Below, in pieces: positions 359 to 51,554 of a DNA stretch of 64,000 nt; within the stretch, counting starts at the first letter, position 1, and each line of letters opens with the position of its first letter. Where the stretch lies: positions 88,908,001 to 88,972,000 of the forward strand of contig OZ024746.1 of the NCBI GenBank assembly GCA_964016885.1, read 5' to 3'. The DNA comes from Eledone cirrhosa (Eukaryota). A model generated the notes under the pieces. That model saw only the letters and a list, made by a program, of their open reading frames with translations, had not been told where the DNA came from and searched no databases. Both the position numbers and the translations under genes were made by a program.

Positions 359-1756
359 TTGGAATTTCTTATTTCTGAAGAAATAGGGTATGTTTCAAAT
401 AAACATTTAGATAGCCGTGGCTATGCCAAAACAACACCAGCTAACGCCATCTGGCGGTGTTAAGCAGAAACAAGGGGGACTATCCTCGATACGCATATCG
501 AATTGAACTAGTCCTCATCAGGACGATTCCTCCCACTCTTGCAACTGTTCTCAAAGTCCAACACAGGAGGAGGTGGAGGTGGTGAATGAGATTACTAAAT
601 GTGATGGGCTCCAGTCTTATAAAAAAAAAACAATGTAAAAGATGTTTTGCATGGAACTGATATAATAAATGCACATATTTCTCTATAATTTAGTCTACTC
701 TACGAATTCCATGGTTTGAAGTACTAAATATTCTATATTATTTTTCTATAAGCGTGACAATAGTATACTCATTCGCTGGAAATATTTCCCAATAATTCTC
801 GTATATCAAATATTAGATAATGCATAAACAACATGTAAGAATTAAATAATACAATAACTATCTACAAAGAAGCACAAATCGGTTATGTTATATTGAATAT
901 ATTTATAAATGATATACAAATGAATATTTTAAATGTTGCAATATTATATTACATTGCTATATACACCGTAAGTGTACATTTAATGTGAAGCATTCAATAA
1001 AATACATAAGAAACAAATTAATCAGTGTCTTATTCTTTTGCAATTGTTCAATAGTTTGCGTGTTTTCACTCTCCAGCGCACTTCACTTCTCTTCCGCTGT
1101 TTTTTTCATTCCTTATGTATCCTATTTAATTTAATTAGAGTGATAAGTAAGATGCATCTAATAATTTACTTTCTGTCCGTTTTCAGATTCTTTATTGATG
1201 AGATTGAATTTTGTACCTTCATTTTTATCGTTATCAAGTCGTTTAATTTCATGCAGTTTATTTTCAACCAATATATTCGATATTTCGATATTTCTTCTCC
1301 ATTCGTTTGATATAACGTTAAGGTTTCCTATGACATAGTCTTTGAGTAGGCGACACCTCGTGTTCGAGCGATTCAAATTATCAAGTAGGTCAGACGCTCC
1401 TCTTTATATAGGTTAAATAATTAGCCTGAATAATTTCATTATTTATTTAGTGAAGCTGCAGGCGCCGTATTCCTATTCCATAGAGGTTCTCAAATTTATT
1501 GGTGGTGTATATTGGGGTGAGGCTGCATGTAGGTGGAAAGGCTGAAGTATATAGCGATTATGGTGGCCTTGAGTTCTAGGTTTAATAAAAGATGTGTTCA
1601 TTCACGGACACGCGTACACGTACATATGAACACACCTATATAAGCACACAAACACACACACATATACACACATACACACATACACACACACACACATACA
1701 CACATGGGAATGGGTGAGCATTGATATATGCATGCGAATACACCACAATAGCCGGC

Positions 1757-1910
1757 GAATTGGCAATGTTATTAAACGTAGGATAGAATGCTTTGTGGAT
1801 TTCATTTGGCCTCTCTGATCTCTGAGTTCAAGTCCCACCGAAGTCAAATGCGCCTTTCATCCATTCAAGCTCGATAAACTAAGTACTAGTAGTGAAGTAC
1901 CTGGGTCGAT
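1757..1910 (+). mobile_element. Old diverged tRNA-derived SINE (Nin-domain-like)
   Basis: B-box GAGTTCAAGTCCC followed by GCCTTTCATCC..TCGATAAA..AAGTAC, as in the younger copies. Confidence 0.75.
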
Positions 1911-1942
1911 TTTTACTATATATATATATATATATATATATT

Positions 1943-2355
1943 TATTCGAAACAAAAGGGAAAGAATGACTTCACTTGTAGTGTTGTAGTGTTAAAAAATG
2001 TCATGATTCAATGTTATAATACAATATTATAATATTATGAGTTGTAGATCCAGTAGGTTCTTTGTTAACTTCGGTGGGAAGAATTTTAGAGATTCCTTAT
2101 TACCTTGGGTTGGAGAACTTTCTCGCATTTGTCTGTCTGTGGCGACTGTCAAACTGAGATCGCCATAGACAGACGAATGCGAGAAAGTTCTCCAACCCAA
2201 GATAACCATGAATCTCTAAAATTCTTCTCACCAAAGTTAACGAAGAAATTACTGGATCTTCCAACTCATAATATTATAATATTATATTAAAATATTTAAT
2301 CATGAAATTTGTTAACACTACATGTAAAGTCATTCATTCCATTTTTTTTCAAATA
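1943..2355. repeat. Fold-back inverted repeat (about 200-bp arms) of a Penelope pLTR-like sequence with a decayed HHR at the axis
   Basis: 1943-2145 is the reverse complement of 2160-2355. At the axis: CTGA-GA TCGC..GCGA GAAA GTTC TC (2154-2192). A related motif lies at 60432-60470. Confidence 0.85.
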
Positions 2356-4344
2356 TACCTAACTCTATCAAGGATCTCACACATTCTAACTCTAATCCTT
2401 CCATAAGACCTATATACCCTTCCAAATCTGACATTGGCATCATTAGTAAAAAGTGTTTAGATAGAGTCATCCCACAATTAAGAAAACATGTTAATTTACC
2501 ACTCTGGGAAAACACATCCCAGGTAATTAACTGGTTTACTAATATTAGAAATAAATCATCTGCTTCATTTCTACAATTCAATATAGATGCTTATTATCCC
2601 TCTATATCACCCATACTCCTCAACAAAGCCTTGATATTTGCCATAAATAGATCAAACTTAACTATGGATGACATTAATATTATCACGCACGCTAGACAAA
2701 CATTACTGGAATTTCAGAAGGAATACTGGACCAGAAATACATATAGTAATCTATTCGACATTACTATGGGCTCTAGTTATTCTGCCCAAATTACAGATCT
2801 TGTGGGCCTCTATCTTCTATTTAACATAAATACTTCTTTTCCCCACCTTAAAGGTGGTTTATATCGTGATGAATGTCTTCTTCTTTTCACTAACCTTAGC
2901 CTATCAGAAATTGAAAAAATAAAAAAAACCTATTAAAACTTTCCTCAAAGACTATTATAGTATAACTATTACATTTGAAAACACCAGTAAAGTAGTTAAT
3001 TTCCTTGATATAACTTTAGACTTATCTACGGATATCTACCAACCTTACCATAAACCTAACCAAAACTCACATTACATACACTCACAATCCAATCACTCTA
3101 GATCTATCCTTAAAAACCTGGCGTATAATATCTCACTCAGAATTTCTAACCGTTCATCTAAGCAGGATATATTCGATAAAAATGCGACCTTTTATAACGA
3201 AGCTTTAGCTAGAAGCGGCCACAAAAACAAATTAATATATATACCTTGTTCCAATAATACTACAAACATACAACCCAATATTACCAACAAACACCAAATG
3301 AAAAATACACACCTAAATTCCACTCACACTATACCCACAAATACCAACTTAAAATGTATTTCACTACCTCTTCTCACATACAATATAATAACTTTCAAAA
3401 AACCATTCATCCTAATACTCCAATATATCTTAACAAAATTACTAACAAAATTCCTAATAATCAGACTAAAACAGCTAAATCAGTGAATCTAACTAAACAT
3501 ATGTATAATAATTTCACTAATACTAACTCTCTTAGTAAACATCAGGATGCATCGTATAAAAATAAAAATCAGCATCGAAACCGTAATAGACGAGTTACTT
3601 GGTATAATGCTCCATTTAATCTACAAATTAAAGATAATATCCCTAAAAAATGTTTTACTATCCTAGAGAAAAACTTCCCGCCAAACCATAAGTACCATCA
3701 CATTTTAAATAGATCAACGGTCAAATTTTCCTACTCCACTACCAAAATATACAACAAAATAAAAGTGCCTACAATGCATATGAATGTACAAAAACTATGA
3801 ATATACCACCAACACATCAAACTAACCATAATATTAAAATAAACCGCAGCAAACCACCATCGCCTTCATATACAAGTTGAATAAATTCCACACCAAATTT
3901 TACTAACTCCCCTGATATAATATTTACGAATGGTTGTAACTCTAGAAACAAAGCAAATTGCCCATTAAAAGGACATTGCCTTATTAATAACATAGTATAT
4001 AAATGTAAAATTAGCACTAAGAACTCAACTTATACCTATATATAGGAGCTACTTCTAACCAATTTAAAGTAAGATTTAATACCCACAAACACAGTTTTAA
4101 AAATGCCGCATTGGCTGAAATAATTAATAATTATAGAAAAAAGAATATCGATTATAACCTGACCTGGAGTGTGCTCAAAAGGGCCATCCCTTATCAAAAT
4201 AACAGATATGAGTGTAGATTATGTTCCCAGGAACTTTTTGAAATAATGAAATCTAAGGATATCCTATTAAATAAGAGACAAGAATTAATTATATCGTGCA
4301 ATCATAGAATTAGAAGAACTTTCAAATATTATAAACCTAATTAA
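2356..4344 (+). pseudogene. Frameshifted PLE reverse transcriptase-GIY-YIG endonuclease ORF
   Basis: ORF pieces 2631-2936, 3354-3800 and 4111-4344 plus intervening frames. Expected catalytic Asp positions read N (QFNI) and E (YRDE). Confidence 0.93.
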
Positions 4345-5064
4345 TATACACTTTTGTTTTACAAATTATTATAATTAGTTCTTTTTTTAAATTTAGTTAA
4401 CCTATAATTAGTATGTTACTACTGAGAACTTCATAATTTTATTTCCCTATTACAGCTATATTTTCCTAAAATTAACACCTATAAGTATACATATAAACTA
4501 TTTTAATATCCTGTTATGAATCTAAATTCCTTGTAGTCTATATAAGATTCTTAATTCTCACTAATACATTTATCCCCCCGCAAAAAAATCTTTTTCCTTC
4601 GTTTTTAACAACATTCCTTAATAACATCTAACTCTTATTTATTACATCTATATGAATTAATATAAATTTATCCTTATAAGTATACCTGTCAATTAAATTA
4701 ATTTAATTTCTTTTTATAGATCTAAATTCCTTATTTTTAATAAGATTGGTATTTCTCACTAACACATTTATCCTAAAATTGTATTCTCCTTCGATTTTAA
4801 CATTAGCATTATTCTTTAATAACATTAAATTTCCGTGTACCTTTCACCGGCTTGACCTCTTTTCATCCCCAAAGTAATCTTTTCATTCAAAGTATTATTT
4901 CCATTCACAGCTGAAATCTGCATTCCTCTACCCCTAAATTAAATTTCTACTACTACTATTCTATCAACTTGACCACTTACTACTCTTCTATTGGTCAATT
5001 CAAAACCTGTTCCAAAACAGACCTATTATATTAAGATTTTGTTGGTGTTTTTCAATAAACAAAT

Positions 5065-15663: not shown

Positions 15664-15716
15664 TTATCTGATGAGGGTTTACCAAAGTGTTGGTACCCCT
15701 GAAATATATATAATAG
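15664..15716 (+). ncRNA. Minimal type I hammerhead ribozyme
   Basis: TTAT CTGATGA GGGTTTACCAA AGTG TTGGTACCCCT GAAA TATATA TA ATAG. Stem III is palindromic and stem II has 2 mismatches. Confidence 0.75.
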
Positions 15717-20676: not shown

Positions 20677-21560
20677 ATATCATAGATTGAGTTAGAAACT
20701 CAAAATATTCTTTTACAATTAAATAGCTCAAAGAAGGGAATCTTTCCGAGCCGTGTAATATAATTGGATATATGAGAGGAATTAACACAGATATAAGTGT
20801 TCATGTGTTCCAATTGCAAATGACCAAGTTAGCTAGGTTGAAAAATACTAATTTAAAACAATATAGTTTGCCTGACTCGATTTAAAGTAATAAATCAATA
20901 AAAATTACAAACCTATATCGGGCAATAGCCTTTGATACCCGGACAGACGCAAATCTGTTTCACAAGAATTATTAAGTGAAAGCCATAATTCCTGTGCTCT
21001 TCTGCGAAAACACATGTACACTTGTATCTGTGTTCATCGCTCTCATATATCCAATTATATTGCGGCTCGGAAAGATTCCCTTCCTTGAACTATTTAATTG
21101 TAAAAGACTATTTTGAGTTTCTAACTCAATCTATGATATTCTCGGCTCCTTTTGTAGAGCTAACTTTAGTCTCATAAACCCAGCTGCTATTTTAGCGGTA
21201 TGAGTATGAGCCTCGCTAAGCGCTGCGACATGTGCGTTTATATCAACGCTTCGTTCAGTCGTCTTAGATCCTTTGAAGTGAAATGTACAATTTTCCTGGA
21301 TACCCGCAGAAGAACACGGGAAATCTGGCTTTCAATTAATAATTCTTGCGGAACAGATTCGCGTCTGTCCAGGTATCGAAGGCTATTGCTAGATATAGGT
21401 TTGTTATTTTTATTGATTTATTAATTTAAATCGAATCAGGCAAACTATATTGTTTTAAATTAGTATGTATTCAACCATGCTAACTTGGTCATTTCCAATT
21501 GGAACACATGTATACGTATCTCGGTGTTCATCCCTCTCATATATCCAATTATATTATATA
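20677..21560. mobile_element. ORF-less HHR-bearing tandem-unit element (family C, about 494-nt unit) plus an inverted copy
   Basis: 21009-21060 repeats at 21503-21557, and 20677-21006 is an inverted copy that crosses the unit junction. The element is flanked by (TA)n. Confidence 0.85.
21299..21377 (+). ncRNA. Hammerhead-like motif with a variant or decayed core
   Basis: Stem I GATACCCG/CAGGTATC, core CAGAAGA, GGAA (GAAA in the inverted copy), stem III CAGA..TCTG, GUC triplet. Confidence 0.7.
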
Positions 21561-48717: not shown

Positions 48718-49895
48718 AGAAAGAAAGAGAAAGGTATATGAAAAAATGGAAATAGTAATTTTACACGAAGAATGCAGAGGAATTTGTGGATATATAAAGT
48801 TAAAGGTTCAGGCATACACCGAAAACTAAAGTACAATTTGATAGAGCGATAAAGATAATGCTTTAGAAAATAAAATCAAAAGTAATCTTTACTTTTCAAA
48901 TACTTTTCGTGCGATAAGATCTCATATGCATAATTTCAATACATAAGAGATGGCTGAGCTCATTGGAGCTTTCCTAAAACTAGCATTAGTGACTGTGATT
49001 GCGATTACGCGCGGTAAGAAGGTTTGAAAAGGCATAATGAATTGAAGGAGCATAGATTTAATTGAGTGTAATGTATAACATGTTTCGGTGGGACAGTTTT
49101 CTCTCTCCTTCTACCTACCTATTTCGATACTATCTACTCTTACCCCTCTTCCTTCCTCTCCCTTTCTCCATCCCATTTTCACTCATGCTCTCTTTCTCCC
49201 AGCCACTTCATTGTTTCCCTCGCATGACCCTCTAGCAATCTTTTTCTCAATTACACTCTCTGGGGTCAGGCGTGCCTTTTCGTTCACCCACACGCTCTTG
49301 AACTTAAGTTATGTTATCGCTGTAGACTGTGATGTTCTTACCTTAAGTTGCTCCCACATTGCTCGGTTTGTTGTTGTTTATTCGGTGTTTTCTTTTGTCT
49401 TCCCCTTTCCCTTCAATTTTCCATCCATCCTCAGTTTTCCCAATAACTTACCCAGTCATTGAACGCTCTGGGGTAGATATCATCTCTTTAAAGTGTTGAA
49501 ATATCTGACATCCTCAGCAGACAACTGATAAGGAACCCCCACCCCAAGGTCTTGCTTTCTTCTTATTCTCATACCATTTTAAGCTACTAGCAACTACACA
49601 GCCACTCGTATTCTCCATATATTTGATATGTATATATATATATATGATAAAGAAAGTGTGGTGACGAACAAGGTGGACCATAACGCACCAGAATACTCGA
49701 TACTGAGGCTACTAGAGTGGGTATTAGGAAAAGAGTCAACACCCGATGGTTGAGCTCCGGCTGTTTCGACAGCTAAATGCGGCTATAAAATTGAGGCTTG
49801 TTTGTATAATTGCAAACAAATTCAATGTTATTAATAGTATTCGAAAAACTCAGTTTACATTTATTGTATTCAGCCATGTAGAGCGAAAACTTTCT

Positions 49896-49923
<28 letters not shown>

Positions 49924-49929
<6 letters not shown>

Positions 49930-50699
49930 TATGTATACGTACATACATATATGTATACATCCGTACAGTAGTATGTATACATATACATACATGCAACATA
50001 TATATATATATGTACATATGGGTTTAGCGAACAAAGGAACGATAAACTAGTGTCTAGCTTATTAGCTGTCATGGACACCGTATACCTTCCTGTCAGTCGA
50101 TTGAACGTTTAAAAGTATGTACTTTCCTTATGCGTATTAACGGCTGAGCAGCCTAATTTGCATATCGAGTGAGTTAGTCAGCCGGGAGTACCGAAAATAA
50201 TAAATGGAAAAAATGGAAATTCATTTCTCACTCTTAGTATGGCTGATACTTAAATATAAGTATGTATACGTACATACATATATGTATACAGTCGTACAGT
50301 AGTATGTATGTACATACATTCACACATATATATATATATATATATATATGTACGTATGTGTTCACCGAATATTTATTATAATGTTCGGTTTGTTTGTAAA
50401 CAAACAGCCCGAATTAAGCCATACAGTGTTCAGCAACCATCGTTTCCCTTTTGTTTAACACTGGCAATGGAACGATGAACTAGTTTCTAGCTTATTAGAT
50501 GTCATCAGCACCGTATACAATGGTTGCCGAACACTTTACGGCTTAATTCGGGCTGTTTGTTCCCCAAAAAAACGAGCATTATAATAAATGTTTGCATGTA
50601 TGTATGTATATACATACTATTGTATGTCTGTACGTATACATACTTATATTTAATTATCAGCCGTACTAAGAGTGAGAAATGAAATTTCATTTGTTCCAT
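49924..50699 (-). mobile_element. ORF-less tandem HHR element (433-nt unit) with an inverted arm, in (TA)n
   Basis: HHR copies at 50039-50081 and 50472-50514. 50519-50699 is the reverse complement of about 50204-50442. Confidence 0.85.
50472..50514 (-). ncRNA. Minimal type I hammerhead ribozyme with intact core
   Basis: ACGGTG CTGATGA CATCT AATA AGCTA GAAA CTAG TT CATCGT. Stem I is 6 bp, stem III is the palindrome AACTAGTT, and the triplet is GUU. Confidence 0.85.
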
Positions 50700-50701
50700 A
50701 T

Positions 50702-50766
<65 letters not shown>

Positions 50767-51554
50767 CTGGTAATGATTTTTCTCTATTTGGGTATCTTAT
50801 CTGTCACTAAAATTATACACCTCCAAATTCTCCTAACATATAATTTGTATTGACACCAGATGTCCTGGGTCAGACAGTCTCTGGAAATCATGCCAGGAAA
50901 ATGGGAATAGAGTAGCAGGTCTTGTTTACCCCGTATTGAATATGAAATTAATTTGCTGGTATTACTGTCTTAAGTTTATTTAATTTCCATAATACGAATT
51001 TCCATTAAAAGTGAAAAAACAAAAGATGTCTTTACTTTATTCTCCGACCAAGATATTTAATACTAAACATGTTTGTATATCAACAGAACCACAAGGAAAC
51101 ACGAATTTCACGTATTTACTTGAATATGAATATATATCCATATACACCAGCAGAAAACCTACCCGAAAGGTGGTTTTCTGCTAGCATGTGCATTGTCCAT
51201 ATTGATATTATACGCACGTATATATGCATGCAGATATGATACATCAAATAAAATCGTAATTTTCAATATACTCAGAAATTGAACGAAGACTCCGTTACAC
51301 TGTCTTCAGTTACGCAATCCATGATACATTAAAAAAATACCGTATTATATATAAACTGCATTAGGCGAAAATTAGTGACGGAAATAACGAATGCTTACTT
51401 AAGTGATCGCTAACCGGAAGTGTTGACATTTGAAAATTTTAAAGATGTGAATCTTAAAATAAGCACCAACATTATTTATATTTAATCAAGAATAACGAAA
51501 TGTAGTAGATAAATAATGTAAAATTGATTCATTATTTATTCAAAGTGATCTTTG

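What the first reader, a model, noticed from the sequence alone, without database searches (positions are those of the whole stretch)
49924..50699. Second tandem HHR element: two minimal hammerheads 433 nt apart
Seen: an intact-core HHR at 50472-50514(-) and a decayed twin at 50039-50081(-), with no ORF between them. Stem III is the palindrome AACUAGUU. The twin preserves the better stem II (AGCT/AGCT). Established: minimal HHRs with a palindromic stem III can cleave as dimers. Inference: tandem copies paired through stem III would release a 433-nt monomer. The family is unrelated in sequence to the 494-nt one.
Basis: partly seen in the sequence, partly recalled or inferred. Interest (0 to 1): 0.75.

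Follow-up and report, generated by a model that had tools for sequence, protein, structure and literature searches.

The report
Decayed hammerhead retrozyme insertion
This is an old, partly broken copy of a very abundant non-coding jumping repeat of an animal genome whose roughly 430-base unit carries a hammerhead motif predicted to cut its own RNA; it is a known kind of element (a retrozyme), and this copy would probably no longer release its RNA.

Summary
A hammerhead (HHR) motif with an intact core lies at 50472-50514(-). A twin lies 433 nt downstream at 50039-50081(-), and only ORFs of 56 aa or less lie wholly between them.

It is not chance. The 36-nt core occurs 644 times in the 3.0-Gb genome. 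A pattern that frees only the tolerated positions occurs 26,639 times. Reversed controls gave 0 in both cases.

The motif is a canonical type I HHR:
- helix I is 6 bp plus a long extension;
- helix II is 4 bp over a non-Watson-Crick 10.1/11.1 pair;
- helix III is 2 bp within the palindrome ACUAGU.

The unit is a 420-500-nt, AT-rich, non-coding tandem repeat with three subfamilies (A, B, C). All three keep the core, and their stems differ by compensatory changes.

Insertions are partial tandems with variable 5' ends. About half carry an inverted second arm, and fixed 3' ends abut (TA)n. This is the published footprint of Penelope-like elements.

So this is a new member of the known animal non-LTR retrozymes. 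The scan has noted the same kind before on other DNA of this genome.

The window locus is an old two-armed insertion. Its twin has four substitutions at invariant core positions, so release of a 433-nt RNA here is unlikely. Cleavage, circles and the mobilising enzyme are inferred; no RNA data could be obtained.

The parts
49899..49927 (.). (TA)n microsatellite flanking the 3' end of the left (minus-strand) arm; presumed target
   Evidence: sequence and D1/D3 rows
49928..50085 (-). Second, partial unit of the left arm: unit positions 1-54, an internal deletion of roughly 100 nt, then about u160-267. It ends at ...CTTATAT next to (TA)n, the second common 3' end of the family
   Evidence: (D2, D6)
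50026..50097 (-). Decayed twin hammerhead with full helix I 5' strand. Core CUGAUGA is UCCAUGA and GAAAC is GACAC; helix II AGCU/AGCU is intact
   Evidence: R1 79.7 bits
50086..50518 (-). One complete 433-nt unit (u1 = 50518), alignable end to end with a 434-nt unit taken from an intact tandem dimer elsewhere (L034)
50459..50531 (-). Predicted cleavage between 50478 and 50477. Helix II is weakened (AUCU/AGCU), and the distal helix I 5' strand is replaced by the inverted arm
   Evidence: HH9 16.5 bits; R1 74.9 bits
50519..50700 (+). Right arm: an inverted, 5'-truncated copy (unit positions about 76-320) joined head to head with the left arm. It ends ...TTCCATAT next to (TA)n
   Evidence: (I1, I2)
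50701..50762 (.). (TA)n microsatellite flanking the 3' end of the right arm

Best explanation
The stretch 49928-50700 is an old two-armed insertion, inside a (TA)n microsatellite, of a non-coding repeat family with a tandem unit of about 433 nt (a retrozyme-type element); the unit carries a type I hammerhead motif that is predicted, not shown, to self-cleave after GUU. Shown here: the motif, its copy number, its conservation with compensatory changes across three subfamilies, the tandem unit, and the shape of the insertions. Inferred from published work on such elements: (1) tandem copies are transcribed into multimeric RNA; (2) because helix III is only 2 bp within the palindrome ACUAGU, two neighbouring hammerheads would pair through it and cut as a double hammerhead, releasing 420-500-nt monomers with 5'-OH and 2',3'-cyclic phosphate ends; (3) a host tRNA ligase would likely circularise them; (4) a Penelope-like reverse transcriptase/endonuclease acting in trans would likely copy the RNA into nicked (TA)n DNA. 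Step 4 would give more-than-unit copies with random 5' truncation, a frequent inverted second arm, and 3' ends at UAU-type microhomologies. At this locus the downstream hammerhead is dead and the upstream one is weakened, so the copy is most likely a relic that no longer yields a monomer.
For: Motif. Rfam's nearest family is Hammerhead_HH9 with the same layout (16.5 bits on the window; 20.7 bits, E 0.0033, on a family-majority copy). Abundance: 2029 first-look candidates; 644 exact 36-mers, control 0; 26,639 matches to CTGANGANAGCTAANAAGCTNGAAACTAGTH, control 0; 12,458 of subfamily B. Structure: 94.2% of 1265 cells paired in 55 distinct heads, against 28-45% when the partners are slid; pair 20-56 is GU 46, AU 5, UG 4 and never unpaired. 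The subfamily majority sequences differ by G.U to U.G (pair 20-56), A-U to U.G (pair 10-64) and two one-sided wobble changes, and otherwise only at N7, 10.1/11.1, loop 2, loop 1, H17 and the outermost helix I pair. Tandem unit: 35 exact-anchor dimers with units of 420-447 nt; arrays of 420-424, 466 and 478-502 nt with 99.4-100% identity within the array in four of five arrays. Non-coding, GC 34-38%. Helix III cannot form in cis (probability 0), and the palindrome duplex is -8.0 kcal/mol. The 434-nt monomer folds with its two ends in helix I, z = -3.9. Insertion footprint: 34 of 39 junctions at u310-328 run straight into TA-rich microsatellite, and a second class ends at u266-270. 5' ends are spread over the unit. 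9 of 20 loci chosen only by an exact core are two-armed, always 5' to 5'. Close pairs are 8 (-,+) against 0 (+,-) among the first 100 places. Literature: PMC7229834, PMC4209133 and PMC8557442 (passages read); preprint 10.64898/2026.07.22.740005 (abstract and section 14 read).
Against: No Rfam family reaches its gathering score (HH9 at most 20.7 bits against 52). The 10.1/11.1 pair is C.A (subfamily A) or U.U (B, C) instead of the usual G-C. The cited paper reports only weak single-motif cleavage for an axolotl ribozyme with U.U there. In the monomer the minimum-energy fold prefers a competing hairpin (AGCUAG/CUAGUU, -21.7 against -19.2 kcal/mol; helix II probability about 0.35). No autonomous Penelope-like partner sharing sequence was found. 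Among copies the core is only slightly better kept than the rest (3.5% against 5.5% mismatches, in a sample partly chosen for an exact core), so selection is visible only between subfamilies. Covariation rests on few events.
Confidence: 0.85

Rival explanations
1. A plain DNA satellite: the units multiply only by unequal crossing-over or replication slippage, and the hammerhead-like motif is carried along with no RNA life cycle.
For: Young arrays are 99.4-100% identical within an array and show ABAB dimer periodicity (L067, L068), which DNA-level duplication can also produce. The unit contains microsatellite-like stretches.
Against: Copies are dispersed on many chromosomes. They have fixed 3' ends at (TA)n, scattered 5' truncations and inverted 5'-5' arms; this is a retrotransposition footprint, not one of array expansion. 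The hammerhead core is invariant across subfamilies that are 84-88% identical.
Confidence: 0.06
2. The motif folds like a hammerhead but is catalytically dead because of the non-canonical 10.1/11.1 pair. It would be kept for another reason, for example as a structure recognised by the reverse transcriptase.
For: C.A or U.U replaces G10.1-C11.1 in all three subfamilies. The match to Rfam is below threshold. A competing hairpin exists in the monomer.
Against: Every base known to be required for catalysis is kept in 26,639 copies, while the tolerated positions (N7, H17, loops) vary. PMC7229834 (passage read) reports an axolotl retrozyme hammerhead with a U.U mismatch at the base of helix II that cleaves, and cleaves better as a dimer.
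Confidence: 0.07
3. A foldback DNA transposon or MITE: the long inverted repeats 50200-50280/50623-50703 and 50368-50443/50517-50592 are terminal or subterminal inverted repeats.
For: Inverted repeats of 81 nt (91%) and 76 nt (86%) surround the upstream motif.
Against: The palindrome is two copies of the same unit joined at different 5' truncation points (u1 and u76). In other loci the junction points differ, and 11 of the 20 exact-core loci have a single arm. The ends of the insertion are unit 3' ends, not inverted termini.
Confidence: 0.02

Closest known systems
Animal non-LTR retrozymes (Cervera and de la Pena 2020, PMC7229834; passages read)
   Same: A type I hammerhead in short, AT-rich, non-coding tandem repeats, from dimers to long multimers, in thousands of dispersed copies. 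Helix III is weak with a palindromic loop, so dimeric action is expected. A U.U mismatch at the base of helix II is described for axolotl HHR_Amex2.
   Different: Units of 420-502 nt are at or above the top of the reported range (RNAs of about 170-400 nt; repeats of 150-450 bp). The sequence is unrelated to the described families as far as I could test. No RNA, cleavage or circle data here.
Hammerheads and insertion architecture of Penelope-like elements (Cervera and de la Pena 2014, PMC4209133; Craig et al. 2021, PMC8557442; Li, Clavereau and Pollet 2026 preprint 10.64898/2026.07.22.740005)
   Same: Partial tandems, high 5' truncation, an inverted 5'-truncated copy at the 5' end, and insertion into (TA)n microsatellites. 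Paired hammerheads lie 100-700 bp apart on opposite strands. The preprint argues that retrozymes derive from the pseudo-LTRs of these elements.
   Different: No RT/GIY-YIG ORF. Helix I of 6 bp and helix II of 4 bp are the canonical layout, not the min-HHR layout (helix II 7-8 bp, helix I 4-5 bp, G10.1-C11.1 kept). No autonomous element sharing sequence was found.
Rfam Hammerhead_HH9 (RF02275), the canonical metazoan type I hammerhead
   Same: Same order of strands: 6-bp helix I followed by an internal loop and a distal stem, 4-bp helix II, and the core CUGAUGA...GAAAC (alignment).
   Different: Score of 16.5-20.7 bits against a gathering score of 52. Helix III is reduced to 2 bp with a 2-nt loop. 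There is no G10.1-C11.1 pair.

Membership tests
Hammerhead ribozyme, type I | Invariant core bases C3 U4 G5 A6 G8 A9, G12 A13 A14, A15.1-U16.1 and a non-G base at 17 | tested here: met
   Upstream copy 50472-50514(-) and the family-majority sequence have all of them. 41 of 55 distinct heads keep them. The twin at 50039-50081 does not (four substitutions).
Hammerhead ribozyme, type I | Helices I and II closing the core, with both RNA ends in helix I | tested here: met
   Helix I is 6 bp plus 4 bp plus 7 bp in the family. Helix II is 4 bp (3 of 4 in the window copy). 91.9-97.3% of cells are paired per helix. Compensatory changes occur between subfamilies.
Hammerhead ribozyme, type I | Helix III | tested here: inconclusive
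   Only A-U and C-G around a 2-nt loop. Pair probability is 0 in cis. The palindrome can pair between two copies, -8.0 kcal/mol.
Hammerhead ribozyme, type I | Reaches the curated score of an Rfam hammerhead model | tested here: not met
   No match at gathering score in the window. HH9 scores 16.5 and 20.7 bits against 52.
Hammerhead ribozyme, type I | Site-specific self-cleavage | not testable with these tools
   Needs transcription of monomer and dimer constructs.
Animal non-LTR retrozyme | Type I hammerhead in head-to-tail repeats of a few hundred bp, non-coding, low GC, without LTR | tested here: met
   Units of 420-447 nt, and 420-424, 466 and 478-502 nt. GC 34-38%. Only ORFs of 56 aa or less between the motifs.
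Animal non-LTR retrozyme | Many dispersed genomic copies | tested here: met
   644 exact cores of subfamily A and 26,639 of the whole family, controls 0.
Animal non-LTR retrozyme | Expressed as linear and circular RNA of unit length | not testable with these tools
Non-autonomous derivative of a Penelope-like element | Insertion footprint: partial tandem, 5' truncation, inverted 5' arm, microsatellite target | tested here: met
   9 of 20 loci are two-armed. 34 of 39 u310-328 junctions abut TA-rich repeats.
Non-autonomous derivative of a Penelope-like element | Sequence shared with the pseudo-LTR of an autonomous element | tested here: inconclusive
   30 GIY-YIG loci (98 kb) gave one family hit, on the opposite strand, where about 0.9 is expected by chance. 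The PLE ORF next to a copy in L051 and the element in L104 share nothing with the unit. Only 30 of 10,596 candidates were looked at.

The most novel reading that the evidence does not exclude
The insertion footprints record how the element is copied. They are: two fixed 3' ends at UAU-type microhomologies abutting (TA)n; uninterrupted read-through of the hammerhead cleavage site, which lies 279 nt upstream of the main 3' end; arms from a fraction of a unit to more than six units; and ABAB dimer periodicity in young arrays. On this reading they are the genomic trace of rolling-circle reverse transcription of religated circular RNA (monomer or dimer circles), primed by the nicked (TA)n target. 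The linear self-cleaved monomer is then not the template.
Probability: 0.3. Interest if true: 0.5.

Novelty: new member of a known kind. Interest (0 to 1): 0.25.

Why it matters
By itself little: hammerhead-bearing tandem repeats (retrozymes) and their dimer-dependent helix III are published, and other notes of this scan describe several such families in this same genome. Two points have some value. First, the family is very large (at least 26,639 intact cores), and its young arrays are up to 100% identical, which makes it a good candidate for testing retrozyme cleavage, circularisation and mobilisation in this animal. Second, its clean junctions at (TA)n tie a canonical-type hammerhead retrozyme to the insertion footprint of Penelope-like elements. 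That supports, from genome anatomy alone, the recent proposal that animal retrozymes ride on those elements.

Tried and rejected
Exact and degenerate patterns were used instead.
- Rfam matches to mir-297, mir-466, mir-3149 and similar families in and around the element fall on TA/TG microsatellite. I rejected them as low-complexity artefacts; all are far below gathering scores.
- Autonomous partner, first lead: the PLE-like ORF (467 + 303 aa, weak RVT_1) 470 nt downstream of a copy in L042/L051 is a separate two-armed element in the same (TA)n. It has no similarity to the unit and no shared hammerhead.
- Autonomous partner, second lead: 30 of 10,596 GIY-YIG candidates gave one subfamily-B hit on the opposite strand (L098), as expected by chance. 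They also gave three unrelated hammerheads. L104 shares nothing with the unit.
- Pfam on five window ORFs of 154-319 aa: no family.
- Earlier notes looked up by sequence (window unit, B unit, C unit): no look-alike other than microsatellite words.
- A 5'-end hot spot at the cleavage site or at u1 was considered. Upstream homology lengths spread from 10 to more than 200 nt, with 3 of 78 at zero, so there is no hot spot.
- RNAcofold of two heads gave a helix I swap rather than the double hammerhead. The double-hammerhead topology crosses helix I and could not be scored as a whole; only the palindrome duplex was scored.
- Organism: not established here.
- A search of the held library for 'hammerhead ribozyme', cephalopod, octopus and retrozyme (listing only) showed no paper on such elements in cephalopods among the 15 listed of 2,601.

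Full report
**What is in the window.**
On the minus strand the upstream motif reads, from 50514 to 50472, ACGGUG CUGAUGA C AUCU AAUA AGCU A GAAAC UAGUU|CAUCGU.
- All invariant hammerhead core bases are present.
- ACGGUG/CAUCGU gives a 6-bp helix I.
- Helix II is AUCU/AGCU (3 of 4 pairs) over a C.A apposition at 10.1/11.1.
- Helix III is only A-U and C-G around a 2-nt loop, inside the palindrome ACUAGU.
- The cut is predicted after GUU, between 50478 and 50477.

The twin lies 433 nt downstream (D6: 50032-50085 against 50465-50518, 87%). It has a perfect AGCU/AGCU helix II. Its core reads UCCAUGA and GACAC, which is four substitutions at invariant positions. Only ORFs of 56 aa or less lie between the motifs. 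One correction: the outer A and U of 'AACUAGUU' are core A14 and site U17, not helix III.

**More than chance.**
- CTGATGA-N8-30-GAAAC occurs twice in the window against 0.18 expected.
- Rfam finds nothing at gathering score. Its best relaxed match at the site is Hammerhead_HH9: 16.5 bits on the window and 20.7 bits, E 0.0033, on a family-majority copy, against a gathering score of 52. The HH9 alignment shows the same layout: a 6-bp helix I followed by an internal loop and a distal stem, a 4-bp helix II, and the core.
- The window lies in a 3.0-Gb assembly of 1796 contigs. A 225-nt query gave 2029 first-look candidates, and most scored copies matched 50518->50368 at 93-95%.
- The 36-nt core of the commonest sequence occurs 644 times (335 + 309), reversed control 0.
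- A pattern that fixes the core and both strands of helices II and III, and frees only N7, 10.1, 11.1, one loop base and H17, occurs 26,639 times, control 0.
- 12,458 of these are one subfamily, B.

**The hammerhead of the family.**
The commonest head is identical in 13 of 77 heads from 50 loci. It extends helix I to 17 bp: ACGGUG/CAUCGU, then an internal loop UAU/U, then AAGG/CCUU, then a GG bulge, then ACUGACA/UGUCAGU.

On 55 distinct heads, 94.2% of 1265 cells are standard pairs, against 28-45% when the 3' partners are slid. Pair 20-56 is G.U in 46, A-U in 5 and U.G in 4, and is never unpaired. That alignment is 95% identical per column and the structure was derived from it, so this count is weak on its own.

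Better evidence comes from three subfamilies whose whole units are 84-88% identical:
- A: CUGAUGA-C-AGCU-AAUA-AGCU-A, site GUU.
- B: CUGACGA-U-AGCU-AAUA or AACA-AGCU-U, site GUA.
- C: CUGAUGA-U-AGCU-AACA-AGCU-U, site GUA.

Their majority heads differ only at positions a hammerhead tolerates (N7, 10.1/11.1, loops 1 and 2, H17, and the outermost pair of helix I) or by pair-preserving changes in helix I. The pair-preserving changes are G.U to U.G at pair 20-56, A-U to U.G at pair 10-64, and A-U to G.U at pairs 5-67 and 11-63.

Among individual copies the core decays about like the rest. 41 of 55 distinct heads keep it, with 3.5% against 5.5% mismatches, in a sample partly chosen for an exact core. 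This is expected if only source copies are under selection.

**Monomer against dimer.**
Folding one 72-nt head gives helix III a probability of 0. It also favours a competing hairpin (AGCUAG with CUAGUU) over helix II: -21.7 against -19.2 kcal/mol, with helix II pair probabilities of about 0.35. Two copies can pair through the palindrome (-8.0 kcal/mol for the flanked duplex).

This is the published design. Metazoan type I hammerheads have a 1-2-bp helix III capped by a small palindromic loop, and fold into an active dimer when a second copy is near (PMC4209133, passages). Axolotl retrozyme ribozymes, one of them with a U.U mismatch at the base of helix II, cut weakly alone and much better in dimeric constructs (PMC7229834, passages).

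The 434-nt monomer defined by two cleavage sites (L034:2011-2444, minus strand) folds with its ends in helix I. Its energy is -117.6 kcal/mol, z = -3.9 against 100 shuffles.

**The repeat unit.**
The window unit 50518->50086 aligns end to end with a 434-nt unit lying between two exact cores elsewhere.
- In the genome, 35 places have both anchors exact with units of 420-447 nt.
- Subfamily B forms arrays of 420-424 nt. Subfamily C forms arrays of 466 or 478-502 nt.
- Identity within an array is 99.4-100% in four of five arrays, against 95-97% between arrays. Two arrays show ABAB dimer periodicity.
- GC is 34-38%.

The spacing is the family's unit.

**How copies sit in the genome.**
I mapped 50 loci to the unit. 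Twenty of them were chosen only by an exact core. A typical insertion is a 5'-truncated unit followed by unit positions 1-320.
- The 3' end is fixed. 39 arms end at u310-328, and by my reading of the printed junctions 34 of them run straight into TA-rich microsatellite (...CCATTTAT|ATAT...).
- A second class ends at u266-270 (...CTTATAT|ATAT...), at least 17 of the 43 arms listed.
- 5' ends are scattered. Upstream homology before u1 ranges from 10 to more than 200 nt, and is absent in 3 of 78.
- 9 of the 20 exact-core loci are two-armed, always with the 5' ends facing each other.
- Among the first 100 exact-core places, close pairs are 8 (-,+), 1 tandem and 0 (+,-).

Craig et al. (PMC8557442, passages) describe the same set for Penelope-like elements. 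The set is high 5' truncation, partial tandems forming pseudo-LTRs, an inverted 5'-truncated copy at the 5' end, and a bias for microsatellites, with (TA)n named as a preferred target of the Naiad clade. PMC4209133 notes paired hammerheads 100-700 bp apart on opposite strands. The 2026 preprint (abstract and section 14 read) argues from Xenopus that retrozymes derive from Penelope pseudo-LTRs.

**The window locus re-read.**
- The right arm (50519-50700, plus strand) is an inverted copy of u76-320.
- The left arm (minus strand) is one full unit (50518-50086) plus a second unit with an internal deletion of about 100 nt. That second unit ends at the u267-type 3' end.
- The inverted repeats I1 and I2 are these two arms, not transposon termini.
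- The left arm starts at u1. The upstream hammerhead has therefore lost the distal 5' strand of helix I, and it carries a G-to-U change in helix II that it shares with two other copies (L009, L022).
- The two units of the arm differ by 13% over the 54 nt that align, so the insertion is old.
- With the downstream ribozyme dead, this locus should not release a 433-nt RNA.

**What could not be shown.**
Cleavage, circular RNA and expression are untested.

The mobilising element is not identified:
- A Penelope-like ORF beside one copy is an independent insertion.
- 30 of 10,596 GIY-YIG candidates gave one family hit on the wrong strand, where about 0.9 is expected by chance. They also gave unrelated hammerheads, one of which (L075/L104) shares the U...U frame around helix II.

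The organism is not established here.

**Verdict.**
This is a real hammerhead in a real 433-nt tandem unit, and a new family of a known kind (animal non-LTR retrozymes with a Penelope-type insertion footprint). Earlier notes of this scan describe the same kind, including an ACUAGU helix III in a 474-nt repeat and the Penelope footprint, on other DNA of this genome. The particular locus is a decayed relic.

The least ordinary reading left open is that the junction anatomy records rolling-circle copying of religated RNA circles primed at (TA)n.

Noticed in passing
window 15668-15704 (+): Another hammerhead-like core (CUGAUGA, an imperfect 10-bp helix II, GAAA) running straight into a TA run that could serve as a palindromic helix III. 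Possibly a Penelope-type minimal hammerhead.
   Followed up: no
window 21009-21061 and 21503-21555: A 53-nt direct repeat, 89% identical, spaced 494 nt. No blastn similarity to the 433-nt unit.
   Followed up: partly
L067:1530-4200 and L068:500-2300 (G000 C1:9968000-9972600 and C1:19314600-19317300): Young subfamily B arrays with ABAB periodicity. Alternate units are 99-100% identical, while adjacent units are 96.2-96.7% (L068) or 99.5% (L067) identical, and lengths alternate 420/422 or 422/424 nt. This looks like the copying of a dimer.
   Followed up: partly
L051 (G000 C1:105504800-105513200), minus strand positions about 740-4600: A Penelope-like ORF in two frames (467 + 303 aa, weak RVT_1 match) with an inverted copy of its own 5' region at its far end. 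It sits in the same (TA)n tract as a retrozyme copy and has no canonical hammerhead within it.
   Followed up: partly
L104:6160-6184 (+) (also L075:2687-2766): A hammerhead about 900 nt downstream of a GIY-YIG remnant. It has the same U ... U frame around helix II and an AACA-type loop as subfamilies B and C, but no other similarity to the unit.
   Followed up: partly
L084:8-74 (+) and L104:1507-1532 (+): Two further, unrelated hammerhead motifs near Penelope-like endonuclease remnants. One has the canonical G10.1-C11.1 pair (GUCC/GGAC helix II).
   Followed up: no
window 49892-50019, 50250-50380, 50585-50770: Relaxed Rfam matches to mir-297, mir-466, mir-3149 and similar families fall on TA/TG microsatellite inside and beside the element. 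All are far below gathering scores and are most likely artefacts.
   Followed up: yes
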